Source: a virus
Virus record (IMG/VR): IMGVR_UViG_3300045988_122518
Reading direction: 5' to 3' (one strand)
Length of the DNA stretch: 64,000 bases
Within the stretch, counting starts at the first letter, position 1. Every line of letters begins with the position of its first letter. Shown here piece after piece: positions 1 through 64,000 of the stretch. A program made the position numbers and the translations under genes. Under the pieces are notes generated by a model. The model was not told where the DNA came from and did no database searches. It worked only from the letters and a program-made list of their open reading frames with translations.

Positions 1-657
1 AATAATAAAATCGTCAGTAATGTAAGAGTCTATGACTTACCAGAAAGTATGGTTGCTTCTGGATACCCAATGAGAACGGATACCGAGCAACATCCAATTA
101 ATGATAAAGATATGACAAGATGTTAGAGTCTTGTGTCTGCCACAAAAAGTGGCAATATGGCTCATGCACAATTTTTAACCGGTATTAGAGTTAATTTTGA
201 TTTAACTTTTTCCAATAAGGCTTGGGTCGAAGCAGAAAGATATAGATTTCTTGAATTTGTATCTTCACAATCCACAATGCATTGCATTACTAAATTTGAT
301 TTAAATGAACAATATAATGAATATGTTGATCCAAGAATCATTGAGATAATGCGTGAGAAAGTTGATATTTATAATAAACTTTTAAGTATTATTGATAGAA
401 TTAAGCATTGTGAAACTGAAAACAAAAATGAAAAAATTAAAATGCTTGAGCAGTTAGAAGAGATTAGAAAAGAAAAATATCTTGAAATTCTATACTCTAA
501 TCCTGCTGGATTTTTGCTTACCGCAAGATTAACTACTAATTATAGATGTTTAAGAAACATATATATTTAGAGAAAAAATCATCGTCTTCCCGAATGGAGA
601 GAGTTCTGTAAATGGATTGAAACTCTTCCTTATGCGGAAGAACTATTGGTAAATTAA
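1..657 (+). CDS. 5'-truncated CDS, ThyX-like flavin-dependent thymidylate synthase family (tentative); two in-frame TAG sense codons (124-126, 568-570); ends at TAA 655-657
   Basis: Frame 1 is open from the window edge. The R-Y-R-x7-S-S-Q-S and N-Y-R-C-L-R-N ... H-R-L-P-E-W segments resemble the ThyX RHR-x7-S and C-terminal motifs. The downstream in-frame peptide PEWREFCKWIETLPYAEELL looks like real protein and only exists if TAG 568 is read through. Confidence 0.4.
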
Positions 658-664
658 TCATAAC

Positions 665-693
665 TTGATTTTTCTAAATAAATATTATATAAT
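665..693 (+). promoter_or_regulatory. sigma70-like promoter (TTGATT, 17 nt, TATAAT) upstream of 732 gene
   Basis: -35/-10 hexamers with 17-nt spacer; shares the motif TATAATATTTATATAA with the promoter at 3281. Confidence 0.3.
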
Positions 694-731
694 ATTTATA
701 TAAGATAAAGAAAGGTTATAAACTTTTTAAA

Positions 732-1109
732 ATGAGTAAGAAACAAGCATTTATTGATTATGTTGAAGAATTAATTGTTGCCACTAATGAAAACCGCTAT
801 CCAGTAGTAATGAGTGAAGATGCTAGTATCTATTGGGAAGCGTTAAAAGCTAAAGAAGAAACTGAAAAGCCTCTATTTACTGAGGGCGGAAAAGCCATTA
901 TTAAATGGATGCAAGATAATAATAAAGATATTCCTCTTGTTAAATCAAGAGAAATTGCCGAATATCTCGGTGTGTCTAGCCGTGGAGTTGCGGGTTCCAT
1001 GCGCAAATTAGTATCTGATGGTTTCGTAGAAAAAGTTAGTCAAGATCCAATTATTTATACTTTAACAGAAAAAGGAAAAAATATTAATTTATTGAATTTA
1101 TTTAATTAA
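732..1109 (+). CDS. small winged-helix-like DNA-binding protein (hypothetical)
   Basis: Intact 125-aa ORF ending at TAA. The segment EIAEYLGVSSRGVAGSMRKLVSDGFVEK resembles MarR/wHTH recognition helices. Confidence 0.5.
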   Translation: MSKKQAFIDYVEELIVATNENRYPVVMSEDASIYWEALKAKEETEKPLFTEGGKAIIKWMQDNNKDIPLVKSREIAEYLGVSSRGVAGSMRKLVSDGFVEKVSQDPIIYTLTEKGKNINLLNLFN

Positions 1110-1123
1110 GGAGAAATTTATTT

Positions 1124-2071
1124 ATGAAGAAAGTAATGGAAAATACTACTCATATTGAAGGTATCTTGTACGAACATGCTTTGGAAAATAAGGTAACCGG
1201 ACCAAATTCTAAGAATCCCGGCACTCCTTTTATTTCTGGTACTATTAGTATTGCTACTGATAATGCTCTTACTAATATCGTCCAGATTCACTTTACTTAT
1301 GTAACTCAAACTACTACTAAGGGCACTCCTAATGCTACATATAGTATTCTTCAGAATATTATTGATGGTACAATCGGTAATTATATGGCTGATGGAGAAG
1401 ATAAAGCTGCTAAGCTTCGTGTCGATTCCGCGATTGGTCTTAATGAATTTTATTCTGATCGTAATGGTAAGGAAGAGCTTGTAAGCACTAAGCGCAATGA
1501 GGGTGGATTTGTTCATACTACTACTACTCTTATTGATGATGAAAAGCAGCGCAATACTTTTAAATGCGATATGATTATCACCAATGTGACTCATGTTGAT
1601 GCTGATGAAGAGCACAATATCCCTGAAAAGGTAATTGTTAAGGGAGCAATTTTTGATTTCCGCAAGTCTTTACTTCCTGTTGAGTTTACAGCTACTAATC
1701 CTGGAGCTATGGCTTATTACGAAGGTCTTGGAGCCTCTCCTTCTGAGCCTGTGTTCACAAAGCTTTGGGGCCGTCAGGTATCTGAAGTAATTAAGCGCGA
1801 GATTCGTGAAGAGTCTGCATTTGGCGATGATAATGTTCGTGAGGTTCAAAGCACTCGTAAGGATTTTGTCATTACCGGTGGCGCTAAGGAGCCTTATGTT
1901 TGGGATGATGAAAGTTCTATCACTGCGAAAGAGCTTACTGAGGCTATGGCAGCACGTGAGACTTACCTTGCTACTTTGAAGCAGCGTCAAGATGAATATA
2001 AAGCTTCTAAGCAGAATGCTACTACTGCTGCTACTATCACACCCACTGCTACAGAAGGTTTTAAATTCTAA
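1124..2071 (+). CDS. hypothetical protein, possibly phage ssDNA-binding protein (precedes Sak4-like ATPase)
   Basis: Intact 315-aa ORF with RBS AAGGAG upstream and no TAG. The functional guess is only from its position next to a Sak4-like gene and a C-terminal aromatic tail. Confidence 0.5.
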   Translation: MKKVMENTTHIEGILYEHALENKVTGPNSKNPGTPFISGTISIATDNALTNIVQIHFTYVTQTTTKGTPNATYSILQNIIDGTIGNYMADGEDKAAKLRVDSAIGLNEFYSDRNGKEELVSTKRNEGGFVHTTTTLIDDEKQRNTFKCDMIITNVTHVDADEEHNIPEKVIVKGAIFDFRKSLLPVEFTATNPGAMAYYEGLGASPSEPVFTKLWGRQVSEVIKREIREESAFGDDNVREVQSTRKDFVITGGAKEPYVWDDESSITAKELTEAMAARETYLATLKQRQDEYKASKQNATTAATITPTATEGFKF

Positions 2072-2092
2072 TCATGAATTAGCCATTAAATA

Positions 2093-2121
2093 GCGATGAC
2101 CTCCCAATAAGAGGTCATCGC
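2093..2121 (+). terminator. rho-independent terminator hairpin (11-bp perfect stem GCGATGACCTC / GAGGTCATCGC)
   Basis: Perfect inverted repeat with a 7-nt loop immediately after the TAA of the 1124-2071 gene. Confidence 0.55.
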
Positions 2122-2218
2122 GCTAAAGTTAATTTATATGATGATTTTTGTAATATACTAAATTTAGAAGAAATACTTAAAGAGATAATAATTAAAACAA
2201 ATAAGGAGAAATAACATA

Positions 2219-3214: not shown

Positions 3215-3230
3215 ATAAAATATAATTTAT

Positions 3231-3270: not shown

Positions 3271-3286
3271 AAAAATATTGTATAAT
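3258..3286 (+). promoter_or_regulatory. sigma70-like promoter with extended -10 (TTGACT, 16 nt, TGTTATAAT)
   Basis: Hexamers and TG extension; overlaps the preceding terminator tail. Confidence 0.35.
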
Positions 3287-3313
3287 ATTTATATAAAGTA
3301 ATGGAAAGGAGTA

Positions 3314-3883
3314 ATTTATATACATAAAGTTAAATGTATTTATTGTCAGCAAACTTTTGATAGAGATAAGTTTCCTTATGTTCAAATAAAATCTCGAAGA
3401 TATGCACACCCTGAATGTGCTAAATAGGCTGAAAATGAAGACACTCCTTTACAAGTTCATAATCCGCCCGAAAAAGTAAAAACAAAAGAAGATTTAGATA
3501 AAGAAAAATTTGAAGAATATGTAAAAAATTTATTGGGAGAATCATATATTAATGCTCGCGTCCGCAAACAAATGAATGATTATATTAGAGAATATCAATA
3601 TACATATTCTGGAATGTTAAAAGCCTTAGTTTATTTTTATGAGGTTAAAGGAAATAATAAAAATAAAGCTAATGGTGGAATTGGTATTATACCTTTTATT
3701 TATAAAGACGCCTACAATTATTATTATAATCTTTGGATGATTCAACAATCTAATAAAGATAAAAATGTTATTGATTACGTTCCTAAATTAAAGGAAATAA
3801 AAATTCCTATTCCTAAAAAAGAACCTCGAAAAAGATCAGTTTTTACATTTTTAGATGAATAGGAGGACTTAAATGCCGAGTAA
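3314..3883 (+). CDS. zinc-ribbon-containing hypothetical protein; no ATG start (candidate ATT/ATA start after RBS AAAGGAG at 3305-3311); in-frame TAG at 3425-3427 and 3860-3862
   Basis: Frame 2 is open from 3302 to TAA 3881-3883. It encodes CIYCQQTF ... HPECAK (a Cys4/His zinc-ribbon-like pattern) joined through TAG to the tracked ORF 3533-3862. There is a strong RBS but no canonical start codon. Confidence 0.35.
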
Positions 3884-5405
3884 ATATGTAGACCCAACAG
3901 CGATTACACAAGTTATAGGGTGTGTATATAATACTCCTTAGCTTTTGGATTTTACTGATAGATATACAATAACTGATGAAGATTTTGCTGATGAATTTCA
4001 TAGAATTGTTTTTGGAGCAATATATAAAATTCATGAATTAGGAGCTTAGAAAATTACTTTAGAAAATATTAGTGATTTTCTTTCTTCTCGACCTAAATAT
4101 GAAGCCACATTTAAAATTAATAAAGGTGAAGAATGGTTATTGAAAGTTTCTGAAAATGCGAAACCTTTGTCATTTGATTATTATTATGGTCGTTTAAAAA
4201 AAATGTCTCTACTTCGTGCTTATGACAGATATGGCATTGATGTTTCTTTTATTTATGATCCTGATAATATTTTAGATACTGAAAAAAAACAATTACAAGA
4301 AGATAATCTTGATAATTCTTCATTAGAGCATATCGCACAATTAATTGATGACCGCATAGAACAAATTAAATATGAGTATGTAAATGACGTTGAAGGAGTT
4401 GCGGTTCAAGCAGGTGATGGAATTTTTGAATTGCTTGATGATTTAGAGCAACATCCAATAGCAGGAAGTCCTCTATATGGGCCATTAATTAATACAGTTA
4501 CTCGTGGGGCAAGACTTAAAAAGTTTTATTTGCGCTCCGCAGCCACAGGTGTAGGTAAAACTCGTTCTATGATCGCGGATTCGTGTTATATTGCTTGTAA
4601 TAAAATATATGACGATACTTTTGGAAGTTGGATCAAAAATGGAATCCAAGAACCAGTATTGTATATAACTACAGAGCAAGATAAAAATGAAATTCAAACA
4701 ATGATGCTCGCTTTTCTTTCTAATGTAAATGAAGAACATATTATTTATAATGAATATCAAGGAAATGAAAAAGAACGAGTAATAGAGGCCGCAAAAATTC
4801 TTAAAGATAGCCCATTGTATATCCGTGAATTACCTGATTTTTCATTGCAGGATGTCGAGAATGAAATCAAAAAAGGCATCCGAGATCACGATGTAAAATA
4901 TATATTTCATGACTATATTCATACAAGCATGAAAATTCTTGAAGAAATTACTCGTCGTAGTGGCGGAGTAAAACTTCGTGAAGACAACATACTTTTTATG
5001 CTATCTAACAAATTAAAAGATATCTGTAATCAATATGGTGTTTTTATTATGTCAGCAACACAATTAAATGGTGATTATGTTGATTCTAAAACTCCTGACC
5101 AGAATCTTTTGCGTGGAGCAAAATCTATTGCCGATAAAGTAGATTATGGATCAATTCTTTTAAATGTCCAAGATGATGATTTAATTTCATTGGAAAAAAT
5201 ACTAAACACAAAATTATTTGATACTCCAACTATTAAAATGTCTGTTTATAAAAATAGACGTGGTAGGTATAAAGGAGTTATTTTATGGTGTAAAGCAGAT
5301 TTAGGAACTTGTAGAATTATTCCTATGTTTTGTACTACATACGCTTATGAACTTGTTCCTATTGATGATATAAAAATTACTCTTGAAGAAGAGTCAGCTT
5401 TTTAA
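3873..5405 (+). CDS. dnaB: DnaB-family replicative helicase, 510 aa with two in-frame TAG sense codons (3939-3941, 4047-4049)
   Basis: RBS AGGAGGA then ATG 3873. The N-terminal domain VDPTAITQVIGCVYNTP-TAG-LLDFTDRYTITDEDFADEFHRIVFGAIYKIHELGA-TAG-KITLENISDFL matches the DnaB N-terminal fold pattern. The C-terminal RecA-like domain has Walker A SAATGVGKTRSM and Walker B IFHDYIHT. Without TAG read-through the N-terminal 89 codons are lost. Confidence 0.85.
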
Positions 5406-11180: not shown

Positions 11181-11401
11181 TGTGGATTTACTGGAAAGAA
11201 CAATGTAATTATTGTTCTAATTATGAAAATTGTTCTTATTATAATAAAGCTCAAGAATTAATTTCTAAATTAGATAATATAGATAGACATACAACAGGTG
11301 TTTATGGAACATTAAAATGGGCTTGTGATTATTTTATAGTTGATGAGAATAAATATTATAGATTAAACCCTGGAGACTGTGAAAATGGAATTAACTCGTA
11401 A
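11180..11401 (+). CDS. Cys-rich hypothetical protein
   Basis: Intact 73-aa ORF; start overlaps the upstream stop. Confidence 0.4.
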   Translation: MWIYWKEQCNYCSNYENCSYYNKAQELISKLDNIDRHTTGVYGTLKWACDYFIVDENKYYRLNPGDCENGINS

Positions 11402-17449: not shown

Positions 17450-17469
17450 ATTATTTACTAACAAAACCT

Positions 17470-44618: not shown

Positions 44619-44688
44619 TTAGTGGTCCTCCTTAATATACTCTTGATATTGCTTTGGTGGCACTAATAGACATTGAACCATTATAAGT

Positions 44689-50007: not shown

Positions 50008-53000
50008 TTAACCTGTTATTTCTTTTCCATTGAGAGTCAATGAACCATTTATTACAACGGGACCTTGTAAATAGATAGACCTATCAGTCACATTAAGATA
50101 ATTACCAGTTCCTCCCATTAAGCCAATTGTGCCATTAAAAATAGTTAAATTGGGAGTAGAAGAATATTCAACAGAAGGACCTAAATAAATATTACTACTA
50201 TTTTTATAATTCAAAATTTTTGATAAATAACTTAAATCATCTACCGCACTCTATGCATTAGACGCAGCATTGCTAGCTACTATAGAAATTGAAGCAGCTG
50301 TTTCCGCTACATCCGCGGCTGCATCTGCTGCCTATTGAGCTTTAGTAGCAGCAGCCCCCGCCGCGCTAGCGGCACTTTTAGCTTCAGCAGCAGCGCTACC
50401 AATTGCATTTAATATATCACTTAATGATTTTTCTCCCGCTCCATACTAAATATACCAAGGCTATCCCGTAGAACCATTATAATTAATTTTAATATTATCA
50501 CTAAAAGTACCAGACTAAGCATAAATTTTACCATTTAATAAATCTAAACTTAACCCTGTTATTACACTAGCTCCAGACTCATTATAAGTATATTCAAAAT
50601 CTTTAGATTCTATAATACTTGAAGTTCCATTAATTATAATCTATCCTGTGCTAGATTTACCAAAAGTAGCAGTTCCGTCATCTTTTAAAGCATAAACTTG
50701 ATATCCATTATTATATCCATAAACCCCAGTATTATAAGAAATACTTGAATCTGCATTTTGTTTTGTTCCAAAATCACCTATTAATACTCCGGTAAAAGTA
50801 TTAGCATTTTTATCTTTTTTACCTGCAGCAATCTAAGCTACACCTAAAAAATTATTTTCTACATCAGTATAAAATTTTCCATCCCATTTATTTACCATAG
50901 CAGATGGATATTTATTCTATAATACTAAAATAGGCTACGTCCAAACTATCTTATTTCCCTATTTTCCTTGGACTCCATAAACGCTTACTCCATCAACATA
51001 AAAACTCATAGGACTTAGTCTATACTCTTTTTTATCTTCATTATAATTAATCTTACCGATAAAAGCATCATTAGAATTACTAGAATAAATACTCCAAGTC
51101 GCAATTTCATCTACTTCGCCATTTACAAATAATTTATAAGGCTCTTTAGAAAATGTAGGTTCACCATTACTTAAATAAATTACCTCTGTTGGACCATTTA
51201 TATAAGTATTATCTAAAGTTGTAATAGGAACTGGATAGTAAGCAGTTAAATCATAGTCTCCCCAACCAGATAATTTTACCTACAAAATAATTAAATTACT
51301 CATTATAGAGTTTGTAGTATTAACTCTTAACACACAATTCTAATTATTAGTATTCTATAAATCAACATTATTAACCGTTGATCCAGCCATAAAACTCCAA
51401 GTCCAATTACATTTTTCAAAATTAGTAATTTCTTTACCTTCATTATCATATAACTAAGCTCTAAAAGTATAATTATCTCTTACTCCACTTTTTATAGCAG
51501 TAAATACTTTATTATTTAAATTCTCGTGAGCTATCATATCAATTACCAAAGTACAATCAGTGCCATTAGTTCCTACCTATCCAAAAGTGAAATCTTTAAT
51601 GGAGGTATAAACAATACCATCTTTTTCTACTTTAGCAATTACGGTATTATTAGATTTATTACTACTATAAAAAGTATTAATAGTATAATTTAAAGAAAAT
51701 TCTCCAGGAGAAACATTGACGTTTTCATTAGTTAAATCAATAATAATTTCTTTATAAGTAGCATCAGTTCCATCATCTTTAATACCAAAATTAAGCATAG
51801 TATTTTTAATAGGAATTTGCCAAATTACTCTCTAAGCTTCAACTAATTTACTTTCTCCATCCTAATTTTTACCAATTATACCATTATTAATAGCATAAGT
51901 CTTAGAATCAAAATGCAAAGTTAATTTACGACTAATCTTTCCATCTGATCTATTCATCAAATAATTAGCCTAATTATAAATTAAATAATTACCATTAGTC
52001 TAATCTTCACAGTGAATAGACAAAGCATTTAAACTATCAATAGTCGCATCATTAGGAACTTGTTTTTCATTATTAAAAGTAATTATATTACTTCTATAAA
52101 CTTTTCCATTATATAAAATAATTACTTTAACCTATTCTTGATTTTTATTAGAGCGCGGTTTTAGCTAATAATAAAAATTATTTTTATTATCTTCAATCGC
52201 AGTCCAATAGACACCAGAATATTCGTCCGCGGAAGGTGCTCCAAATTCATACGCATACCAGCGAACTTCAAATGTATCTTCTTTTTTATGTTCAGTTATT
52301 TGAGTTCTATTGCCATCTTCATCAAAATGAACCCATTTCAATTTAATAGTTTTAGAATCAATCTAACCTTTATCATCAATTACATAAGTACTTCCATCTA
52401 ATGAATACAGTCTTACATATTCATTTTCTATTTCATCTGCGGAAATACCTAATCCCATATATATATCTTTTACAAAGATATTATTAGGCGGAATTGACAT
52501 ATTGAAATCATTGGCATAACTAATTAAATTATTATTACTATCTTTAAAATTATCTTTTTGATATAAAAATATTTTTATATTATATATTTTAGCTACTGCG
52601 CTAGTATCAATAACAATTTCTTGAGAATAATATCCTTCAAAATTATAGGGATTGCCATACATGTCATTAGTATCTAAATCAATGGATGCGATTAAAGGGG
52701 TTTCTCCATTATTTTTGATACTTGCTTCTATTTTTTTAATATTATCCGCAGTATCATCTTTAATACCATATATATTTATTTTTAATCCATAATTACCACT
52801 TATTACACCGAGTGTTTCAAGCCAGGCGCGGAAATCGGCACGCAGCCCCAACCGCGTAAATCCCTATTGCTCATCAGTAAAGGTAATTCCGCCATTTGGA
52901 GTAATCTCAATTTCCTCTTCATTACCATTAGCTAAGATACTCCAAATTTCTTTATTATTATCTTTGGCAATAAAAAAATTACCAGTTAAATCAATAAAAG

Positions 53001-53325
53001 TATTAAAAGGATTGACAAAATTATATGGTTTATTTTCATTTTTATCTGTCTTTTTACCGACAATAAATTTAGTGCTATTATAGTCTCCTTCTGGAATCTA
53101 TACATACACTTTATCGCCTTTGTTATAAGTGGTTATTTGGGAATAAGCATAAAATTCCGCATAAGATTCATTTTTGACCTTATACTTACCAATAAGTTTA
53201 TCAGTCGCATCAATAATAGTACATTCAATGGTACTATCAAATTTAACTTTGTCAACACTTGAATTAGCAATAATACTCATTGCTTGACATAAACTTTCTT
53301 GAATATTTAGTGCGTTATCAGCCAA
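50008..53325 (-). CDS. large tail protein directly downstream of the tape measure gene (1105 aa, TTG start, Ala-rich linker, many TAG); Dit/Tal-like by position
   Basis: RBS AAAGGAGGG then TTG 53325; tracked ORFs 53098, 52363, 51577 and 50008 all share frame 1; the 52852-53097 junction was traced; ends at TAA 50008-50010. Confidence 0.5.
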
Positions 53326-53440: not shown

Positions 53441-56400
53441 TTATTTTCTATTGGCATATTGAGAAGCTACATTAACTAATGTATTAAATGCTTCTTGAAT
53501 TTCGTATCTATCAGTAGCGTTCGGGAAACTAGCTTCAATTCTAACATTCTATTCTAATGTTCCATCTTGAGAACTAACAGTAAATCCAGAAGAAGAAAGG
53601 GTAGAGATTTGTTGACTATTGAAATCTAATTGTTTAGCGATCTATCTAACTAATTGGATAGAAGCTAACATATTTTCCGTATCATCAGCATTAAGAACTA
53701 ATTCTTTCTAATGTAAGAACGCTAATTTTCCGCTATCATTCCAAGTGCCAGTATAACCACCACTTCTAAATCCGACTAAATCTCTCCATTCCTAATCAGT
53801 AAGCTAAGCAAAACTATATTTACCATTAGGAAGTTTACCAGAGATTTTTCCTTCACTGAGTAATTTATAATATGCATCAACTCGAGCCGTAGTGTCTTCA
53901 TTGATACTACCGCCATTAGCAATTTTTTCTTCGCGGTTTCTTTTATATTGATTATATTGCGCGGAACCATAAGCCACAGTGCCCATCATGGCCGCCCAGT
54001 CAGTATCTCCACCACTATCGCTACCAAATCCACTTTGAGAGCGTAATGTCGCTTGAATAGCGTTCAAAAGCTCTTCATAAGCTCTAATAGTATCAAGTAA
54101 TTGCTGACGATGTTGTGCCCAAGCTTCAGTAGCACTACGGACAGAACTTAACTCACCTTCAAGAGCAGGAATAACTCTATTAGATACTTCTTGATAAAGT
54201 TTATTACTTTCATCAGTAACATCTTTAACTTTCTATTGAGTATCTTTTAAATCATCACCAACAATTTTACTAATTTCATCCATACTGTCTTGCCATTCTT
54301 TAAATGTATCATTGATAATATTAGTGTTTTCAGTAATGGTATCTTTCCAACTATTACTATTATCTTTGATAATATCAAAAGAATTTACCCAAGCGTCTTG
54401 AACAACTCTACTATCCTCTTCTTGTGCTTTTGCATAAAGATTTCCAGCAGTAGTAATTAAATCAGTATATTGTTGAATTACTAAAGCACGTTCTTGTTGA
54501 TATGTGGTCTCACGGTAAACAGCATCTTCCGCGGCTTTCTAATCAAGTTCCGCGAGCTTCTCAGCCAACTCTTTCTCATATTGAAGTTTTTGTTGACCAT
54601 ATTTATTTGTCGCATCAAGACGAATATTATATAAATCATTTTCCGCGTCCGCCAAAGCCTATTGCGCGTCATTTACTTTCTCTTGGTCTGCGGTATACAC
54701 ATAACCAAAATTACCCTCATTATCACGTTGTAATCTAACTGTGGATTTTGCGTTTTGAGCTTCCTCTAATGCAATTTGCGCTTCAAGCACTTTATATTTA
54801 GCCTAAGCAATTTCTAATTCTAATTGACTTAATTTATCTTTATCTCTTAACTACTCAATTTCTTTAGTAAATTGCTGGTATCTATTTTTAGCTGCTTGAT
54901 TATTTGTCTTATCAATAGCCTAATTAACATTATTAAGTAGTTTATTCATTTCATAAATCTAATTAGTTTTTGTTAAGTATTCATCTTGATAAGAAGACAT
55001 TCTATCCAAAGCATCATTTAAAGCATCCCAACCGGAAATATTAAAGTTATTACCATTAATACTTACTTTAGTAGTGCTTAATTGCTTATTCATTTCATCC
55101 GCAGCTTGTTCCATCTTTGTAGTAAGAATTTCTTTTAATGCTTCACCATATTCTTCCGCTTTAGAAAGCATATCTTCTTCCGCTTCATCGAACGCGGCTA
55201 ATATAGCATCATAATTCTTTTGAAGCACTTCGCGTTCAGCCTCATCAGTTGAACTGGCTAAAGCTGCGGCCGCTGCATCGCGCTCACGCTTCAAGCTTTC
55301 GTACCATTGTTTAGAAGTATCAAAATTATTTTTCTTAGTCTAAGCAGTTCCATTTAAAACTGATAAAACTTTATCATAATCTTTATCTTTACCTAACAAA
55401 GTAATAATAGAACGATAATGATCTAATACACTAGTTAAATGCTCCATATGATTTGTATATTTAGACAATTCATCATTTGCTAAATCTATAGTATTACCAT
55501 AATATTCAAGCATTTCTTTATCTAAATCCTACAAAGCATTTAAATTATCTAATGTATTATCATATACATCTTGTAAGCCTTCGATATAATTTTCTTGAGA
55601 AATTTCTCCATTAGAATAAGCATTGTTTAACTAACCATAGAAATTTTCATAAGTTCCTAATTGGCTAATTACTGGATCAAATTGACCTTGTAAATATCCA
55701 AGAGCTTCAGCAGCTTTATAAATATTATCACTTAATTTATCGAAATAATATTCTAATTTCTTAGTATCATTTTCATCTAATTGAATTTTTACTTCAACTT
55801 CATAAATTAATTTTTCATAATGTAATTCTTGAACTGTATTCTTTAAATCAATTAAAGCTTTTTCTTGCTCTTTTAATTTATCTAAAGTTTCTTCATACTA
55901 CTCTAAAGCTTCTCTCTATTTATCAGTAGTAGCTTTATTATATAAAGCAGTATAATTATCGATTTCTAATGTTTCCTTATTAAAAATTGCCTATCCGCCG
56001 AACTGTTTTTGAACTTCCTACCGATCTACAGCTACATTCGCTAAAATTAAATTATACAACTAAGACTATAAATCAATCAATTTTTTATTAGCTTCAATTT
56101 CTTGATTTATATTATCAATTTTAGCTTTTCCATAAAGTTTATCTTTGCTATCCGCTAATTTATCTAAAAGTTTTTGATAATATTGAATTTCACGAGTTAT
56201 TTCATGATAGCGCTCAGCGACTTTTTGCAATTCTTTAGCAGTATTAGATGCATTTTTTCCAAGATTTTTAAAAGCATTATTAGTCTTTAAAACTGATGCT
56301 CCAACAGAAGCAATCATCCCGCGGATGTCATTTGCCTATGCCATAGTAGAAGCATAAAGGGAATTATAAGTAGCCGCAATTTTAGCCCAAGTTTCTTTGG

Positions 56401-59400
56401 AAGTATTTTGTCCATCTGCTAATGCTTTATCTAACGTCTTCTATGCATCTTCTAAGACTTTTGCTTCAGCACTAACACCTGTTGACCCTTTATAATCAAC
56501 CTAGAATTTTCCTTCTAGTTTTCCCTTTCCATTTCCGCTAACTGCTTTTTTCATATTATTTATAGCAGTATTAGCAAAATCTACAGAATTCTATGCTGCT
56601 GATTTAAAAGCTTTCTACCAATTTTCCGCTACAACTTTAGCATTATCTTTTGAAGAATTGGCAACAATTTCTTGATTATCAGCCTATGTATCAGCTGTAT
56701 CTTTACTATTTTTTGATTCTAATTCAGCTAAATTACCAGAGATACTACTCCTAATAGCCGCAGATTCCTAAGCACTTAAATTTTCAGCTGTGGCAAGAAT
56801 TTCTGCCAAATGAGCTATATTTTTATAATTTACAGCTTTCGCTTCTAATAAAGTAGCCTAATTATTTAACTATTCGACAGTAGCTTCAGCGTCAGCAGCA
56901 ATTTCTGCTTTAGCTGCATCAAAGCAATCTTTAACAACACTTTCTTTTAATTTAGCTGATCCATCTTTAGCTATTGTCATTCCTTCAATAATACCAGGAA
57001 AAACATTATTTAATTCTCGAATGTCATCAGCAGCAACACTATAATTAGGACCAATTTTAGAAGCCTAAGTATTCATATCTTTAATAGCATTTGTAATACT
57101 ATTAAATTCTTGTTCTGCTTGGCCATGAACTTCAACATTTATACTATATTGCTAATCTGCTAATTCATCCATAGAATCTTTAAATTTACTAAGATCAGCC
57201 TCTACAGTAACATTTACTCCTTCTTTTTTATTTATGATCTATAAATTTTGTCGAAGTTCTTTAAGAAGTTTATCTGAATCTTTATTTAAATCATTTAATT
57301 TGATTTCAGCCATTTTATCTTGGACTTGTTCTAAAGCTTCATAATAAGTTTGACTACCAGCATTCCAAGTATGAGATAATTCTAAAGCCGCAGATTCTAA
57401 TTCAGGATATTGTTTTTTTATTATTTCTAATTGCTATATCAAGTTAGAATAATCTTCATTAGAAGAAATATTTTCTTGAGTAACATCTCCACTCTATAAT
57501 CCACTAATTAAATTAGAAGCGTTTTTTTCGCCCGTTTTGGCAGCGTCAACAATTCTCTAATTATAATTATCAGGATTATAATTATTTAAACTATTTTCGA
57601 ACCCTTCTAGCCAAGCTTCTCCATCATTTAATCCTAAAGATTCCATTTGTTCTTTAGTTAATCCTAAAGCTTCTGCAAATCCATCTGATCCAAGTTGTTT
57701 TAATTCTTCAACCTAATCAGGAGATAATTCAGATAAAATAGAAGTTAAATCTAAACCACTTTCGGCATTTGCTAGACTATCAAGAATTGCCTATGAAAAA
57801 TTAGCACCAAATGTTTTATCAAAAAATTCTGTTTTCTTAAGAAGGTTTTCAATAGATTTATCAAATTCTTCTAAATTATAAGAATCATTATTCTCTAAAG
57901 AATTAAAAATTTCATCTGTTGCTCTTTTCCTAGCGATCTATTCTCGCATATAGGAATCATTTTCGTCTTCAAAAAGGACAGTTCCGTTTATATTCTTTAA
58001 AGTTCCTTTTCCAGTCCCACCACTATAAATATATTGACCTAACTCTTCTTCTGTTAATCCTAAAACTTCTCTTGCATAAGCTTTTGCTAATTCTTTATCA
58101 TTATCTATATTTAAATCAGCATTATTATTATGAGCTGGCAAAGTTAAATTAGTAAAATCTTTACCACTATTTTTAAGAATTTGACGCTAATATCCTGCTT
58201 CAGCAGCATAAATATAATCCTATAAAACAGTATTATCAGTAATCTTTTCAACTCGTCCAGAATTATTTTGAATATTTTTACTTTTTAATATTTCATTACT
58301 ATAATAATCAGTAGCTTTAGTAGCTTCAGTAATACTATCTGCTAAATTAAAGAAAGCATCACTACTTTCCATAATTTTATCAATGCTCTCAGAATAAAAC
58401 GTTGTATTTTCTTCTAATTTTTGTCTTAAAATTTCATCCTAACTCTTATGAGTTTTTATACTTTCTTTCTATGCTTCAATAGCAAATTGAGTAATTAATT
58501 CAATTTCACCATTTGTAATTGTGCCAGAATTTCCTTCTCGCTTTACTTTACCAATATTTCTACTTAAATCAGTATTAGAAACTTCTTTTTTAGCAGATTC
58601 AACATCAATTTTAGCACTCTACTAAAGAACTTTTATATTATTTGCAGTATCATTAATCTTCTTTTGAGCTTCTTCAATAGCTCCTGTATCAAAAACAATT
58701 AAGCCATCTTTAATTTCATATTTATCCCATAATCTATAAGTTTCAATTAGTTCTTTAGCTTTCTCATTAGCTGATTCTAAAGAATCTGTATATTCCTATG
58801 TTTTTTTATCTAACCCATTAAGCGCTTCAACGGCTGTAGTATAATCATTAGCTTTATTTTTAAATTCTTCAATTGATGAAGTTAATTCATTGTATTTTTC
58901 AGTTAATTTTTCTACTGTTTCACTAGCAGATTTTAAATTATTATCTGCTTTATTATATTCATCTATAGCAGATTTAATAATAAACACTAAAGCACCAATA
59001 GCGGCTCCAACCAAAGCTATTGACCCTAAAGATTTAGTAAATACCTTAATTGCTAATTTAAAAGCTGCTACTCCTTTTAAAGTAACTAAATTTAACGCTT
59101 CTTGTTCTAAGGCCTATCCATTTAATCCAACAGCAGTCATTAAAGAACTAGATAACATTCCCATATTAGCAATTGAAGTTTTATTTAAAGAATTCATTAA
59201 TAAGGGTAAGGCAATAGATAAAGCAGTTACGGTTGAAAGTAATTTATCTCCAATACCAATTTCATCATTATTCCATGTATCTACAATTCCTTTTATAGAA
59301 GTTATTGCCATAGCAATACTGCTTAATCCCTAAGCAAAAGAAGCTACTCCTGCTTCTGCTGAAGGTAATACTCCACTAAAAGAATTTATAGTATTAATAT

Positions 59401-61747
59401 ATTCTTGATTAGCATCAGTGGCTCTATTAGTAGCCTATACATTATTAAGAATTTCAATAACCATAGAAGAATATGAATCTTGTAATGAATTAATAGTATT
59501 TTCAATCTGTTCTTCAGTCATCTAAGTGCCTTCTAAAGTACTTCGTAACTATGAAAATGCTGAATTGGCTTCATTTTCTGTAATAGTAATTAAACTATTT
59601 AACTAATTTCTAAATTCTTCAGTTGTATTATAAGTCCCATTAAGAATATTATCTAAACTATTAAAAGACATCCCTAACTAAGAAGTTTTATCACAAACCT
59701 ATTGGAGTTTCTCTTTTAATTCATCTAAATTTTCGATATCTCTTGTAGCACTTTGGAAATCATCTAAAACACTAGATAAAACAAAATTCTGTCTAGTAGA
59801 ATTTACCTAAGATCTATAATCCTAAACATTCCCTTGTTTCATTCTAACTTGCGTTTCAAGCTATCTTTCTAATTGACGAGTTATTTTTTGCTATTGTTCT
59901 AAATCTTGAGCACTCTTAATTGCTCGTTCTCCAAGTTTTTCATTAATATCTATAATAAATTTAGCCTAAGCCTATTCTTCTTCAGTCAACTGACTCCCCT
60001 AAGCAATTAATTCTCTTTGTTTCTAAATTAAAACATCTTGTAAATTAGCCTACTAAGTATAAATATCACTACGAGTAGAATAATCAGGTCCCTAATCAAC
60101 ATTATCTGCCATAATAGATCTCAATTTATTATTAGCTTCTTGACGCATTTTTACAATTTCATTTATTCCATTTTTAGAAGAAATTTTAATATTATACATC
60201 ATCCGTTGAATAGATTTTGTAATATCATTCCCGAATACTTTAAATCCAATAGTTCCAATAATAGATAGAACTCCAGGCAGTCCTCCTAATGCTTTAATTA
60301 GCTAGCTAATAACATTTAATAATTTTGCAAAAATATTAGTTAATTGAATAAAAGCCTTATCATCCAATAGCTAATCATAAATAGTTTCCAAAGAAGCAGT
60401 AACTCTATTTTTAGCAGCTTCCCAAGATTCTGCGTAAACGTCAGCTTGCTCCTGAAGAGATCCATCAGCATCCTAAGCTTTAGTAAGATTTTCTTTATAA
60501 TAATCAAAATGATCCATCAAAGCAATTAATTGAGTATATTGACGAACACCCGCAACCTATTGTGCTAAAGCTACTTGCTAATCTTTATCAATACTCTGCC
60601 ATTTATTACCCATTTCTTCGATAATATTATCCATATCTTTTAATTCACCGTTAGAATCTTTAATATTAATTCCAACTTTTTCAAGAGCCTATGAGTATTG
60701 ATTTAATGTAGTACCATCTTCTAAAGTTTCACCAAGTTTTAAACCTTGAATACGAGCAAAGATCGTTTTTAAAGCAGTACCTACAACATCTTCACTTTGA
60801 CGAGTAGTAGCAGTAATAGTGGCTAAAGCTGCTGCTGCATTATCAAAACTTAAACCAATTGTACTAGCAACCGCTGCAAATTTTTCAAGGCCACCAGCAA
60901 TCTCATCAGAACTAGAAGCGGTATCCGCACCTAAACGCACCATAGCATCAGCATAATGCTCTAATGACTAGCTTCCATCATAAAAATTATTCCAGACAGC
61001 AGTCATTTGATCTGAAACAATTTCAGCACTTTCACGAGCCACATTTGCCATTTTTATAGTGATGTCAGTACGTTCTTTTACCTATTCATCATTTAAACCC
61101 TACTGATAATAAATTAAGGCTGCGTCAGTATATTTAGTAGTTGTAGTGCTTAACTCTTTAGCAGCTTTATTTGCCTAAATTGCAAATTTTGCCATCTAAT
61201 CTGCATTTTGTCCAGTAACGATACGAATATTATTTAAAGATTCATTTAAATCCTAAGCATAATAATAGGCAGACTATATTGCTCCCATAAAGCCATGTAA
61301 AATACTTGAAGATATTTGCCAACGAGCAGTATTAGCTAAAGTAGTTCCAAATTCTTTTAATAAGGCATTACTTCTTTTTAAGGGCAACTCTGCTGTAGAA
61401 ATAGATTTTGCTAAATTAGCGAAAGCCTATTCGCCTTCTCTACCTAAAATTTGTAGCTAATCTCCATACTCGCTAATAGTTCTTCCACTTTTTTTTAATG
61501 ATTGATTAAATTTTCCTAAATCAATAGTCCCCGCCTCTGTTCGGCAAGTGACTAACATCCCTTGTAATTCACTAACATAAGGCAAGGCTTTTTGAATTTC
61601 TTGCGATAAACTTAAATTACCATAGCTGTTAACATTTTTTGTTAAATTATTAAGCTATTCTTGTAAATCTTTCAACTATTGTTGAGCCTATTTAGCATCA
61701 GCAGTAAATTGTAAATTAACCTAATAACTATTTAATTGTTTAGCCAT
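53441..61747 (-). CDS. tail tape measure protein, 2768 aa, recoded with dozens of in-frame TAG
   Basis: RBS AAAGGAG then ATG 61747. Nine tracked ORFs between 53804 and 60943 share frame 2. The C-terminal 120 codons were traced to TAA 53441-53443 and contain the TMP-type motif FRSGGYTGTWNDSGKLAFLH.KELVLNADDTENM. Long coiled-coil-rich sequence throughout. Confidence 0.7.
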
Positions 61748-61779
61748 AGGAATCTCCTTTCTCTCCAATTTTTACTTTG

Positions 61780-61828
61780 CAAAATAAAAATAAAATGGGG
61801 ATAAGAGCAATTATACTCTTATCCCCAT
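61780..61828 (-). terminator. terminator-like hairpin (TGGGGATAAGAG / CTCTTATCCCCA plus U-run) between the chaperone-like gene and the tape measure start
   Basis: 12-bp perfect stem followed on the - strand by TTTTATTTTTATTTT. Confidence 0.45.
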
Positions 61829-61871
61829 CACTCTATTATTTTTCAAAAAATAATATTATTAACTAATTTAA

Positions 61872-62405
61872 TTAGCCCAATTTAGTAAGTACGTCTTTCA
61901 ATAAAGCCATATTATCTGGATCATTTAACTTCTTTTGAATATCTGTTGCATCCAAATCTAAATTACTATAATCCGCGGAAATTGCTTCCATAATACCCAT
62001 CGCAGAATTGCGATATGACACAATATTATTAGCCATCTCGTGAGTCGTTTTATTTAAATAATAAAATTCTCCATCAGGCACAAGACCAATAATAAGATTA
62101 AGCACTTTAGAAGCATTAAGCATATCGTAAAGCTTCATTGGATCTTCTTTTTGCTTTTCAGTAAATGAAATATTACTATAAGCATAAACAATCTCTAAAC
62201 CAAGATTCATATCTAATTTTAAAAGGTTATAGTATCCAGTATTTTCATCCACTGAATTATTCAATACACGAGTAATCAATTCACTCTTTTCCGCGATAGG
62301 AAGATATTGCTTTACTTCAATAGTCTAATCATTGTATTCAACAGTTTGAACTTTATTAAGTTCATCCTTAGTAATTCCTAATTTATTATATGAAATTTTA
62401 GCCAT
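61872..62405 (-). CDS. putative tail assembly chaperone (177 aa, one TAG), by position upstream of the tape measure gene
   Basis: RBS AAAAGGAGG then ATG 62405; tracked ORF 61872-62279 extended through one TAG; ends at TAA. Confidence 0.4.
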
Positions 62406-62453
62406 AATTAGCCTCCTTTTACTCTTTATTATATTATACAAAAAATTTTTTAT

Positions 62454-63595
62454 TTAGTCAATTTTAAAATGCGTTTACCAATAGCAGTTTCAACTAAATT
62501 ATCTATATCTTCTTGAATTAAATTATCAAATTCATTAAAATTTGATATTTCAGTCTCAAATTGTTTAAACAGAATTTTTGCCTAAGTATCAACATCCTAA
62601 GATTTTAAACTATTTATTATAGTTCGCAAAGACTAAATTCTTTCTTTAAACAAACTTTTTATTTTTTTACCAGTAGTTTTTAACTATATATTATAAACTA
62701 CCTACATGGTTTTAGGATCAACAATAATAATATCTCCACCAGTATACCAACTTATATGATTTTTAGAATCTATTAATAGCTAAGGGAAATGGCCTTTTAT
62801 TCCGCCCTCTTGCTCGTAAACAGAAACAGTATCTTTATTTCCAGAATTCAAATTTATCTGTTCTATTCCACTTGTCTTTAAATAATTATAAATCCCTCTT
62901 TCATAATTAGCCATATGATTCATAAAAGCATCATAAGCCTACCCTAAACCTTGCCCTCTATAATATCTATTTAAATTAATTTTTCCAGTTTTTTTAGATG
63001 TTGAACCATAAAAAGCCTAAGCCCAAGTGGCGCCAGTTAAATGATGATTTTTTTCTGAATAATAACTTACTAATTTACTTTTATAATATCTATATAAATA
63101 ATGTGCTTCTTCTTTACTAATAGACTATCCTAATTGAGTTAAAAAACCATTTAAATGTAAATTTAAAAAATTCTAAACTTCTTGAGCTTTTAGCGCGGTT
63201 TCCATAGCACTTGATACAGCTTCACCCGCAGTATCAATACCCCATTCTTTACCTCTTATCTATTCAGCCATATTTTGTTCTAGAATAGTTGAAATTTCAG
63301 CAGACTAATTTTTTGTTCCACGATAAGCAACAATTAATTCCAATGATTTTTTATTTAATAAAACAACTTCTTGGAACTTCTTCCATTTAGACTAAAATTC
63401 TAATGCCATTTTAGGAGTAACTACATCTCCTTTAATTCCATTTAAAACTTTATCTAAATCATTAATAACTGAATTAATTTCTGCTCCATTCTTTTCACAG
63501 TATTCTTTAAAAATCTATAAAAATAATTCTTCATTATTAACAAATATATCTCCAAATATTATACCTTTTATTTTACCATTAGTATTAATTACCAA
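62454..63595 (-). CDS. hypothetical tail-region protein (about 380 aa, TTG start, about 12 in-frame TAG)
   Basis: RBS AAAGGAGG then TTG 63595; read through TAGs to TAA 62454; protein-like sequence throughout, but the frame was not coordinate-verified. Confidence 0.35.
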
Positions 63596-63619
63596 ATTTA
63601 ATCCTCCTTTTCCACATAA

Positions 63620-63658
63620 CGAAAAAAATGGGAGAGAATATTTCTATTCTCTCCCATT
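63620..63658 (-). terminator. terminator hairpin (AATGGGAGAGAATA / TATTCTCTCCCATT)
   Basis: 14-bp stem then a U-run on the - strand. Confidence 0.45.
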
Positions 63659-63660
63659 AA

Positions 63661-63843
63661 TTAATCTTTTTTATCTAATTCAGATAAAATCTTACTTACC
63701 TCATCTTCCTATTGAAGAATTACTTCCTCAATAGGTTTAATAGGCTCTTTCTTTACAGCCTTTTCTACTTTTGGCTGCTTTTTAGTAGATTCTTTTTTAG
63801 GCTGTTTTGGTGGAGTATATTTTACTGGACCTTTTACAACCAT
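63661..63843 (-). CDS. small Lys-rich hypothetical protein (about 60 aa, one TAG)
   Basis: RBS GGAGGCT then ATG 63843. Confidence 0.3.
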
Positions 63844-63850
63844 ATTAATT

Positions 63851-64000
63851 AGCCTCCAATAACAGTGGTGCTATTAGCAGCGGTCTTTCTACGAATATCG
63901 TTGTCAACAGTTTCGTCTTCTTCAATAATCTGAATAGCAGCCAAAACTTTCTTACTATGATCGAAACGAGTATAGTCAGGGAATGCATCCATAGTAAAGG
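63851..64000 (-). CDS. 3' end of an upstream tail gene (5' part lies outside the window), possibly the major tail protein
   Basis: Open frame ending ...TVIGG then TAA at 63851. Confidence 0.3.

What the first reader, a model, noticed from the sequence alone, without database searches (positions are those of the whole stretch)
1..64000. TAG is a sense codon throughout: stop-codon-recoded phage (code-15-like, TAG probably Gln)
At least 14 recognisable enzymes and regulators are intact single reading frames only if TAG is translated: DnaB, RecJ-like, SF1 helicase, Gmk, NrdD, NrdG, RuvC-like, the AgrA-like regulator, the tape measure protein and every large tail gene. Conserved motifs sit on both sides of the TAGs; in DnaB the N-terminal domain and the Walker motifs are separated by two TAGs. 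In every case checked codon by codon the only interrupting triplet was TAG, never TAA or TGA, and every gene terminates at TAA or TGA. In Gmk the TAG falls at the conserved S-x-(E/Q)-E-F position, which fits Gln/Glu. The standard-code six-frame track is nearly empty from 44 to 62 kb for this reason alone.
Basis: partly seen in the sequence, partly recalled or inferred. Interest (0 to 1): 0.9.

Follow-up and report, generated by a model that had tools for sequence, protein, structure and literature searches.

The report
Gut phage reading TAG as glutamine

Summary
With TAG as a sense codon, ORFs of at least 100 aa cover 93% of the window instead of 46%. In 44-62 kb the figure rises from 22% to 98%. 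Treating TGA as sense changes nothing.

36 of 49 genes carry 244 in-frame TAGs and no in-frame TAA or TGA. All 49 end at TAA (38) or TGA (11).

TAG means glutamine. In about 60 related contigs, window TAGs that change become CAA or CAG far more often than anything else, and window CAG and CAA are the codons most often replaced by TAG. In NrdD and NrdG the TAG sits at a conserved Gln.

Usage is graded. It is 0 of 50 Gln codons in DNA polymerase III alpha, 12% in the replication block and 39% in the tail block. It is essentially zero in a GC-rich block of about 78 small genes elsewhere in the genome, which carries 20 perfect sigma-70 promoters.

The window has no tRNA. The same phage lineage has a cluster of at least 19 tRNAs about 60 kb away, and no CUA tRNA was seen in the part I could fetch. 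A related TAG-recoded phage carries two Gln-like CUA tRNAs in its cluster.

This is a new member of a known kind (code-15 gut phages), of modest interest.

The parts
1..657 (+). Gene of unknown function (phrog_6721). It runs off the window start. 2 in-frame TAG.
3873..5405 (+). DnaB-type replicative helicase, 510 aa, 2 TAG (residues 23 and 59, inside the N-terminal domain).
   Evidence: Pfam PF03796 and PF00772
7366..9114 (+). RecJ-like DHH phosphoesterase, 582 aa, 6 TAG.
   Evidence: Pfam DHH and RecJ_OB. The C-terminal TAG aligns to Gln in relatives.
11385..12578 (+). SF1 (RecD/Pif1-like) helicase, 397 aa, 1 TAG.
   Evidence: Pfam AAA_30 and UvrD_C_2
12869..16882 (+). DNA polymerase III alpha (SPbeta YorL-like), 1,337 aa, with no TAG among 50 Gln codons. 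It can be translated under the standard code.
16845..17450 (+). Guanylate kinase, 2 TAG. The first aligns to Asp/Glu in solved homologues.
17526..19847 (+). Anaerobic ribonucleotide reductase NrdD, 773 aa, 1 TAG. The TAG sits at the Gln of 'sQyGG' / 'hQyGG' in two of three solved NrdD structures.
20534..21028 (+). NrdG activase, 164 aa, 1 TAG in the 'RGSRN-TAG' motif. Relatives of 56-57% identity have 'RGSRNQ' or 'RGSHNQ'.
22731..23174 (+). RuvC-like Holliday junction resolvase, 3 TAG.
   Evidence: phrog_827 and phrog_159
26890..27606 (+). Response regulator (receiver domain plus a weak LytTR match), 1 TAG. It lies on the opposite strand inside the late block.
31815..39533 (-). Structural protein of 2,572 aa, 30 TAG. 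Its only family hit is a weak BspA-type LRR match.
39652..41313 (-). Tail-fibre-like protein, 553 aa, with no TAG among 15 Gln codons. It is an exception inside the heavily recoded block.
41998..44271 (-). Structural protein, 757 aa, 10 TAG.
44632..46938 (-). Tail/baseplate protein, 768 aa, 8 TAG.
   Evidence: phrog_1887 (tail protein) and phrog_32343
46916..49807 (-). Structural protein, 963 aa, 13 TAG.
50008..53280 (-). Structural protein, 1,090 aa, 24 TAG. TAG makes up 65% of its Gln-type codons.
53441..61747 (-). Tape measure protein, 2,768 aa, 84 TAG.
   Evidence: Pfam PF10145, one stretch over residues 193-399
62450..63595 (-). Protein of unknown function upstream of the tape measure gene, 381 aa, 14 TAG.
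23715..31508 (-). Ten smaller minus-strand genes at the downstream end of the late block, 1-7 TAG each. Several have a TAG within 7-16 codons of the stop, and relatives conserve the residues that follow it. The opposite-strand regulator gene at 26890-27606 interrupts this span.

Best explanation
The window is about one third of a roughly 197-kb tailed phage from the human gut that uses genetic code 15: UAG is decoded as glutamine, and only UAA and UGA terminate.

The most likely mechanism is the one proposed for other recoded gut phages. Early genes contain no TAG, so host ribosomes can translate them under the standard code. The phage then supplies an amber-suppressor tRNA with anticodon CUA, derived from tRNA-Gln and charged by the host GlnRS. 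That tRNA lets ribosomes read through the TAGs that are sparse in replication genes and dense in tail genes. Late structural proteins therefore cannot be completed until the code has switched. Because every gene ends in TAA or TGA, release factor 2 alone could terminate them, so RF1 could be outcompeted or disabled.

Shown here:
- TAG is in frame and conserved.
- TAG is interchangeable with CAA and CAG.
- TAG is never a terminator in the window.
- TAG use is graded between gene blocks.
- A TAG-free, promoter-rich early block exists elsewhere in the genome.
- The same lineage carries a large tRNA cluster.
- A related recoded phage carries two Gln-like CUA tRNAs.

Inferred, not shown:
- that this lineage carries its own CUA tRNA
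- which synthetase charges it
- what happens to RF1
- the timing of expression
For: TAG as sense. Coverage by ORFs of at least 100 aa is 46% under code 11, 93% with TAG as sense and 50% with TGA as sense.

TAG means Gln. The evidence is the codon substitutions in relatives, NrdD against solved structures, and NrdG, RecJ and other C-terminal alignments. TAG positions along genes are distributed like CAA/CAG positions (KS p = 0.79). Counting TAG as Gln lifts the Gln content from 3.0% to 4.2% of codons, against 3.7% in the TAG-free polymerase.

Gradient. TAG is 12% of Gln-type codons in the plus-strand replication block and 39% in the minus-strand structural block (Fisher p = 1e-15). It is 0 of 50 in Pol III alpha.

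Early block. In the same lineage (IMG/VR contig ..._118370) a block of at least 34 kb has 40-47% GC and about 78 small genes. Their stops are TAA 53, TGA 24 and TAG 1, and TAG occurs at 0.28 of expectation on the coding strand. The block has 20 perfect TTGACA-N16-18-TATAAT promoters on its coding strand, against 1 in the whole 64-kb window.

tRNAs. ENA contigs carry a protein identical to one encoded on IMG/VR contig ..._118370. On those contigs and on close relatives of them, a cluster of 16-19 tRNAs runs off the fetched DNA. A related TAG-recoded phage, L312, has 66 in-frame TAGs in 17 genes. It shares 75-94% nucleotide identity with the window's lineage in the common segments. Its tRNA order is Gln(UUG), Gln(CUG), then a CUA tRNA directly abutting, and it has a second CUA tRNA about 16.6 kb downstream. 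Both CUA tRNAs have U1-U72 unpaired, C2-G71, C3-G70, G73 and an encoded CCA, like the neighbouring tRNA-Gln(CUG).

Literature. The model comes from Borges et al. (bioRxiv 10.1101/2021.08.26.457843). UAG read as Gln was shown by metaproteomics in crAss-like phages (PMC9523058, abstract seen).
Against: - ARAGORN and Rfam find no tRNA in the window.
- No CUA tRNA was found in the roughly 152 kb of this lineage's 197-kb genome that I could read. About 45 kb stayed out of reach.
- No release-factor-like gene was found in 5 Mb of fetched loci.
- Replication genes such as DnaB and RecJ also carry TAGs, so the switch would have to come before replication, not only before morphogenesis.
- The capsid-like gene just outside the window has no TAG. 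TAG density therefore does not simply follow lateness.
- Expression timing is inferred from sequence only.
Confidence: 0.85

Rival explanations
1. TAG is a sense codon for an amino acid other than glutamine, such as tyrosine, pyrrolysine, lysine, glutamate or leucine.
For: In distant relatives TAG also aligns to AAA, GAA and GAT (bands below 80% identity). The first Gmk TAG aligns to Asp/Glu in solved structures. ARAGORN labels CUA tRNAs 'Pyl' by default. The D and anticodon arms of the first CUA tRNA in L312 resemble those of the neighbouring tRNA-Tyr (my reading).
Against: Among single-base neighbours of TAG in close relatives, CAG appears 52 times, TAT once and GAG, AAG, TTG, TCG and TGG never. 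CAA, which is two changes away, appears 31 times, as expected if the path is synonymous. The per-site tally is Gln 69, Glu 9, Lys 8, Tyr 5. AAA and GAA are simply the commonest codons of this AT-rich genome. Both CUA tRNAs lack the long variable arm of bacterial tRNA-Tyr and have a Gln-type acceptor end. I did not search for a pyl operon.
Confidence: 0.04
2. The phage has no suppressor tRNA of its own. UAG is read by a near-cognate host tRNA, for example tRNA-Gln(CUG), after the phage removes or blocks RF1, or by one of the aberrant tRNA-like genes in its cluster.
For: No CUA tRNA was seen in about 152 kb of the lineage's genome. Borges et al. detected TAG suppressors in only 40% of TAG-recoded genomes. 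The cluster begins with a conserved tRNA that has a 6-nt anticodon loop.
Against: The fetched part of the cluster lacks tRNA-Gln, Val, Tyr, Gly, Lys and Cys, so it is clearly incomplete. In the related phage the CUA tRNA sits exactly in the Val-Gln-Gln-CUA-Tyr stretch that lies beyond my reach. Completing a protein with 84 TAGs would need very efficient decoding. The odd tRNA's loop contains no CUA.
Confidence: 0.1
3. The host itself reads TAG as Gln, and the phage merely matches its host. There is no code switch.
For: The host is unknown. Related contigs were binned into MAGs labelled 'uncultured Mollicutes' and 'Clostridium sp.'. Some uncultured lineages do have altered codes.
Against: About 78 early genes and 13 window genes avoid TAG completely, both as sense and as stop, and TAG is strongly depleted in the early block. 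That pattern is expected if those genes must be read correctly under both codes. It is unnecessary if the host already reads TAG as Gln. To my knowledge no bacterium with TAG read as Gln has been described. Phages matched to a recoded host use the codon in about 90% of their genes.
Confidence: 0.04
4. The TAGs are real stops. The region would be a decayed prophage, an assembly artefact or a set of short independent genes.
For: Under code 11 the tail region consists only of short ORFs.
Against: Only TAG interrupts the frames, never TAA or TGA. 142 of 216 aligned TAG sites are TAG in every relative compared, across about 60 related contigs from IMG/VR. Single HMM matches span the TAGs. Sequence after a TAG is conserved as protein.
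Confidence: 0.01

Closest known systems
crAss-like phages using genetic code 15 (TAG read as Gln), validated by metaproteomics (Peters et al. 2022, PMC9523058)
   Same: Human-gut phage of low GC. TAG is read as Gln, mostly in late structural genes. Genes end at TAA or TGA.
   Different: This phage has a genome of about 197 kb and an SPbeta-like replication module (Pol III alpha YorL 39% identical, YorF). That points to a Firmicutes-type host rather than Bacteroidota. I did not test for Crassvirales marker genes.
Gemstone clades of Borges et al. (bioRxiv 10.1101/2021.08.26.457843), in particular 'Sapphire'
   Same: Their text gives four mean genome lengths for five named clades. Read in order, the 201 +/- 22 kb value would belong to Sapphire. 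Their Sapphire representative is shown among the TAG-recoded maps. Sapphire has the lowest fraction of recoded genes (26%), and its structural and lysis genes lie in several recoded modules. All of this fits a 197-kb genome with a large TAG-free block.
   Different: Membership is defined by a terminase tree, and I had no Sapphire sequence to compare. The resemblance is a lead, not a test.
Lak megaphages and other large TAG-recoded phages that carry suppressor tRNAs and sometimes RF2
   Same: A large phage with many tRNAs and recoded late genes.
   Different: Lak genomes are about 550 kb and infect Prevotella. No RF2-like gene was found here.
phAss-1 / proposed Phassvirus (Babkin et al. 2023, PMC10607447)
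   Same: Human-gut phage with TAG in characteristic phage ORFs and suppressor tRNA genes.
   Different: That genome is 136 kb. The GenBank phage collection holds no near nucleotide match to window 1-25000, and its best Pol III alpha protein match is 39% identical.
E. coli supE-type amber suppressor, tRNA-Gln with anticodon CUA
   Same: The two CUA tRNAs of the related phage have G73 and a weak or unpaired 1-72 pair, and they sit next to tRNA-Gln genes. The identity rules for GlnRS are from my own knowledge.
   Different: These tRNAs are phage-encoded. They were found in a relative, not yet in this lineage, and charging is untested.
Theta (HDV-like) ribozymes next to suppressor tRNAs of recoded gut phages (Kienbeck et al. 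2024, PMC10879173)
   Same: The setting is the same: tRNA clusters of recoded gut phages.
   Different: Rfam gave no HDV-like hit in the tRNA regions searched. Both CUA tRNAs here encode CCA, whereas only 4.5% of theta-associated tRNAs do. I did not run the authors' motif.

Membership tests
Phages with stop-codon recoding, genetic code 15 (TAG read as Gln) | Conserved genes are interrupted in frame by TAG and by no other stop codon. | tested here: met
   36 of 49 genes hold 244 TAGs with no in-frame TAA or TGA. Single HMM stretches span the TAGs. Treating TGA as sense gives no gain.
Phages with stop-codon recoding, genetic code 15 (TAG read as Gln) | TAG positions correspond to glutamine in homologues. 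| tested here: met
   Relatives of at least 95% identity: CAG 52, CAA 31, other 4. Per site: Gln 69 against Glu 9. The reciprocal test gives the same answer. NrdD and NrdG have conserved Gln at the TAG.
Phages with stop-codon recoding, genetic code 15 (TAG read as Gln) | TAG is not used as a terminator; genes end at TAA or TGA. | tested here: met
   Stops are 38 TAA and 11 TGA. For all 11 genes with a TAG within 30 codons of the end, relatives conserve the residues after it.
Phages with stop-codon recoding, genetic code 15 (TAG read as Gln) | The phage encodes a suppressor tRNA with anticodon CUA. | tested here: inconclusive
   There is none in the window and none in about 152 kb of the lineage's 197 kb. 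The lineage's tRNA cluster is cut off at the edge of the fetched DNA. A related recoded phage has two. About 45 kb was not seen.
Phages with stop-codon recoding, genetic code 15 (TAG read as Gln) | Recoding is concentrated in late structural and lysis genes, and early genes are compatible with the standard code. | tested here: met
   12% against 39% of Gln-type codons (p = 1e-15). Pol III alpha has 0 of 50. About 78 early genes have no in-frame TAG and only one TAG stop, and they carry 20 consensus sigma-70 promoters. The timing itself is inferred.
Phages with stop-codon recoding, genetic code 15 (TAG read as Gln) | The host uses the standard code. | not testable with these tools
   The host is unknown. 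The only pointers are MAG bin labels and SPbeta-like replication genes.
Phages with stop-codon recoding, genetic code 15 (TAG read as Gln) | Peptides show Gln at TAG positions. | not testable with these tools
   No proteomic data were available.
Sapphire clade (Borges et al.) | Placement in the clade on the large-terminase tree with at least 95% bootstrap support. | not testable with these tools
   No Sapphire sequences were held. The terminase-like ORF of this lineage is at L149:8464-10203 (assigned by eye, no family search).
Sapphire clade (Borges et al.) | Genome of about 201 +/- 22 kb, TAG recoding and a low fraction of recoded genes. | tested here: met
   Related contigs reach 190-197 kb. 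73% of window genes carry TAG, but essentially none of about 78 genes in the early block do. This is consistent with the clade but does not define it. The 201-kb figure rests on my reading of an ambiguous list in the paper.
Crassvirales | crAss-type capsid, portal and terminase genes, a giant RNA polymerase, a genome of about 100 kb and a Bacteroidota host. | not tested
   I ran no marker-gene profiles. Genome size (about 197 kb) and the SPbeta-like Pol III alpha argue against membership.
supE-type suppressor tRNA-Gln(CUA) | Anticodon CUA on a tRNA body with Gln identity features (G73, weak 1-72 pair). | tested here: inconclusive
   The feature is met for the two tRNAs of the related phage, at about L312:4607-4681 and L312:21249-21323. 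No such tRNA was found for the window's own lineage.

The most novel reading that the evidence does not exclude
This lineage has no ordinary CUA suppressor. UAG would instead be decoded by an unconventional route: a host near-cognate tRNA after RF1 is disabled, or one of the aberrant AT-rich tRNA-like genes in the cluster. In that case the sharp split of the genome would be the real control device. One compartment is GC-rich, TAG-free and packed with sigma-70 promoters. The other is AT-rich and uses TAG. The conserved first tRNA of the cluster has a 6-nt anticodon loop that reads as UUA or UCA, and it could then act on termination at UAA or UGA.
Probability: 0.08. Interest if true: 0.65.

Novelty: new member of a known kind. 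Interest (0 to 1): 0.3.

Why it matters
For annotation the effect is large. Under code 11 more than half of this window, and nearly the whole tail module, is lost as fragments. The tape measure gene alone would break at 84 places.

Biologically the window adds a well-populated example from the human gut. One window protein is indexed in 411 blocks of the assembly collection. The phage is a large, probably Firmicutes-infecting member of the code-15 group. Its three tiers of TAG use, roughly 0%, 12% and 39% of Gln-type codons, fit the published idea that the code change times late gene expression.

It opens no new question. TAG read as Gln in gut phages has been known since 2014 (from my own knowledge) and was confirmed by proteomics in 2022. 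The public gene calls for these contigs already read through TAG.

Tried and rejected
1. TGA or TAA as the recoded codon. TGA as sense gives no gain (50% against 46% coverage). TAA as sense only produces many more overlapping ORFs of at least 100 aa (211 against 69), as expected in 30% GC DNA, and the longest barely grows.

2. Finding the source contig by an exact 40-mer: no match. A megablast of window 1-25000 against GenBank phages also found nothing.

3. The hunt for the suppressor tRNA.
- I walked the genome outwards from both ends of the window. This used all 8 viral scans, the single metagenome scan, the single genome scan, all 3 protein searches and 9 look-ups of encoding contigs.
- No tRNA appeared over roughly 113 kb.
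- The tRNA cluster then turned up, but the fetched DNA ends inside it.
- Using homing-endonuclease paralogues to sample other parts of the genome failed, because the hits looked up sit at the same DnaB insertion site.

This is weak negative evidence.

5. PHROGs on nine tail-region proteins gave almost no annotation.

6. TAGs as 5'-proximal gates: rejected. Their positions along genes match those of CAA and CAG.

7. TAG as a terminator of early genes, for example the TAG 7 codons before the end of the 3302-3883 ORF (gene call 3533-3883), 10 nt upstream of the dnaB start. Rejected, because relatives conserve the residues after it.

8. An AT-rich tRNA-like gene with CUA inside a 9-nt loop (L310:19101-19170) as the suppressor. 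Its anticodon region is not conserved in the homologous element of L312, so I do not propose it.

9. HDV-like or theta ribozymes next to the CUA tRNA: no Rfam hit.

Full report
**Observation**

The window has 29.8% GC. Stop-to-stop ORFs of at least 100 aa total 13,818 aa under the standard code, 22,982 aa if TAG is read as sense and 16,287 aa if TGA is. The longest ORF grows from 1,337 to 2,776 aa.

Start-to-stop ORFs of at least 100 aa cover these fractions:

| Region | Code 11 | TAG as sense | TGA as sense |
|---|---|---|---|
| Whole window | 46% | 93% | 50% |
| 44-62 kb | 22% | 98% | 24% |
| 44-62 kb, ORFs of at least 200 aa | 0% | 95% | 0% |

I settled on 49 genes. 36 of them contain 244 in-frame TAGs. 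None contains an in-frame TAA or TGA. The terminators are TAA 38 times and TGA 11 times.

- DnaB, RecJ-like DHH protein, SF1 helicase, guanylate kinase, NrdD, NrdG and a response regulator
- tape measure protein, lysozyme and dUTPase
- primase and RuvC-like resolvase

Most large tail genes have no family match. The DnaB TAGs lie inside the N-terminal domain. The LytTR match is below Pfam's cut-off.

**What TAG encodes**

Two scans of IMG/VR brought in 60 loci from related phage contigs of up to 197 kb. I translated them with TAG as X, aligned the window proteins to them and read the codons under each aligned TAG.

| Identity band | TAG | CAG | CAA | Other |
|---|---|---|---|---|
| At least 95% | 1,245 | 52 | 31 | 4 in total |
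| 80-95% | 322 | 32 | 64 | GAA 17, AAA 10 |

TAA and TGA never appear. Counted once per site, 216 of 255 TAG codons have aligned relatives. 142 are TAG in every relative. 57 of the 74 variable sites show CAA or CAG. Gln accounts for 69 alternatives against 9 for Glu and 8 for Lys.

The reverse test agrees. Window CAG (6.3%) and CAA (1.6%) are the codons most often replaced by TAG in relatives.

Distant standard-code homologues also agree. The NrdD TAG aligns to the Gln of 'sQyGG' and 'hQyGG' in two of three solved NrdD structures. The NrdG TAG is the Q of 'RGSRNQ' in relatives of 56-57% identity.

TAGs within 30 codons of a gene's end are followed by residues that relatives conserve, so they are not terminators. 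TAG positions along genes are distributed like CAA/CAG positions.

TAG is therefore an ordinary glutamine codon here. It is four times commoner than CAG (244 against 58).

**Uneven use**

TAG supplies 12% of Gln-type codons in the plus-strand replication and nucleotide-metabolism block (1-23.7 kb). It supplies 39% in the minus-strand structural block from 28 kb onwards (Fisher p = 1e-15). DNA polymerase III alpha has 0 of 50. A tail-fibre-like gene has 0 of 15.

**The rest of the genome**

I walked outwards from both window ends.
- Upstream of the window start lie gyrase, RNase H, ligase and a lysozyme/holin pair.
- Beyond the window end lie sheath-like, capsid-like (0 TAG) and portal-like ORFs, and a terminase-like ORF with 7 TAG. 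These four labels are by eye and position, not from a family search.
- Next, on the opposite strand, comes a block of at least 34 kb with 40-47% GC.

That block holds about 78 small genes. Their stops are TAA 53, TGA 24 and TAG 1. TAG occurs at 0.28 of expectation on the coding strand, and CAG outnumbers CAA. The block carries 20 perfect TTGACA-N16-18-TATAAT promoters on its coding strand, against one in the whole window.

This looks like a host-transcribed early region that is safe under either code. That is what the code-switch model of Borges et al. predicts.

**The suppressor tRNA**

The window has no tRNA and no Rfam family. Two protein searches let me step further along the genome. ENA contigs that carry a protein identical to one on IMG/VR contig ..._118370, and close relatives of them, hold a cluster of 16-19 tRNAs. 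On that contig the cluster would lie about 60 kb beyond the window end.

The fetched DNA ends inside the cluster. It contains no CUA tRNA, but it also contains no tRNA-Gln, Val, Tyr, Gly, Lys or Cys.

A related phage, L312, is itself TAG-recoded, with 66 in-frame TAGs in 17 genes. It shares 75% nucleotide identity over the adjacent glycine-rich genes, 74 of 76 bases of tRNA-His and 94% around tRNA-Ile with the window's lineage. Its tRNA order is Ile, Pro, Val, Gln(UUG), Gln(CUG), CUA, Tyr, and it has a second CUA tRNA about 16.6 kb downstream.

Read in the right register, both CUA tRNAs have an unpaired U1-U72, C2-G71, C3-G70, G73 and an encoded CCA. That is the acceptor design of the neighbouring tRNA-Gln(CUG) and, from my own knowledge, of GlnRS substrates.

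In the window's lineage the fetched DNA stops just after Ile and Pro. By synteny the Gln/CUA stretch should lie shortly beyond the end of the fetched DNA. That is an inference, and about 45 kb of the genome remains unseen.

No release-factor gene turned up (a weak test).

**Comparison and verdict**

TAG read as Gln in gut phages is established. Ivanova et al. 2014 is from my own knowledge. Borges et al. is bioRxiv 10.1101/2021.08.26.457843, and the proteomic proof is PMC9523058.

The size, the TAG code and the low overall fraction of recoded genes fit the 'Sapphire' clade of Borges et al., but membership could not be tested. The nearest annotated phages are SPbeta-like, with Pol III alpha only 39% identical.

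The public gene calls for these contigs already read through TAG. The finding is real and correctly interpreted, and it is a new member of a known kind.

Noticed in passing
L174:6000-20306, L187, L209 (IMG/VR contig ..._118370, about 98,844-132,800); outside the window: The genome has two compositional compartments. A block of at least 34 kb has 40-47% GC, about 78 small TAG-free genes and more CAG than CAA. It carries 20 perfect sigma-70 consensus promoters and a repeated intergenic element of about 70 nt. The rest of the genome has 29-30% GC. Small AT-rich, TAG-containing islands sit inside the block, for example L187:15879-16529 with 6 TAG.
   Followed up: partly
L306:20839-20909, L307:20839-20909, L309/L310/L311:11381-11451, L316:11385-11455: The first gene of the tRNA cluster is a conserved AT-rich tRNA (Rfam tRNA 42.7 bits) with a 6-nt anticodon loop. 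The loop is AUUUAA in five loci and CUUCAA in one. Read as U33-NNN-A37, the anticodon would be UUA (ochre) or UCA (opal). Its function is unknown.
   Followed up: partly
L310:16473-16523: A match to the type-P1 twister ribozyme lies inside the tRNA cluster. It scores 41.2 bits with E = 3e-6, below the gathering score of 67.2.
   Followed up: no
L310:19101-19170 and L312:about 620-720: An AT-rich tRNA-like element (Rfam tRNA 46.7 bits) has a 3-bp anticodon stem and a 9-nt loop. Its anticodon region is not conserved between the two phages. It is probably a degenerate tRNA.
   Followed up: partly
window 12869-16882 and 39652-41313; L064:4075-5199: Three long genes have no TAG at all although their neighbours are recoded: Pol III alpha, a tail-fibre-like gene and, just outside the window, a capsid-like gene (assigned by position, no family search). 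Possible reasons are a need for very high or early expression, or recent acquisition.
   Followed up: partly
L143:14363-15040, L300:10001-10678, L302:10001-10681 (relatives); the corresponding site is window dnaB, 3873-5405: Many relatives carry a GIY-YIG homing endonuclease that splits dnaB, and further copies nearby. The window's dnaB is intact. The endonuclease genes themselves contain in-frame TAGs.
   Followed up: partly
window 26890-27606 (+): A response-regulator gene (receiver domain plus a weak LytTR match) sits on the opposite strand inside the late block. It may be a phage-encoded AgrA-like regulator.
   Followed up: no
L316:1-7919, L312:11458-20463: Relatives carry a gene set next to the two glycine-rich (ALK_LTK_GRD) proteins that looks like peptide modification or export. 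It includes radical SAM proteins, YcaO, a glycosyltransferase and a C39 peptidase, all TAG-recoded.
   Followed up: no
L220:1510-2904 and 3601-4305: A GC-rich (46%), TAG-free flotillin/SPFH-like gene and a cysteine-rich repeat protein are embedded in AT-rich DNA upstream of the gyrase genes. The flotillin label is by eye, not from a family search. They look recently acquired.
   Followed up: no
(gene tables of ENA and Logan contigs): The public gene calls list full-length DnaB (510 aa) and RecJ (582 aa), and the tool reports 'translates_to_query: no' for TAG-containing genes. The collection's gene caller therefore already used a TAG-sense code for these contigs.
   Followed up: yes
L061, L062: Contigs 98% identical in Pol III alpha were binned into MAGs labelled 'uncultured Mollicutes bacterium' and 'Clostridium sp.'. 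This may hint at the host or may be a binning artefact of low-GC DNA.
   Followed up: no
window 53441-61747 against L047-L060: The tape measure protein is far more variable between strains (48-98% identity) than the neighbouring tail genes (88-100%).
   Followed up: no
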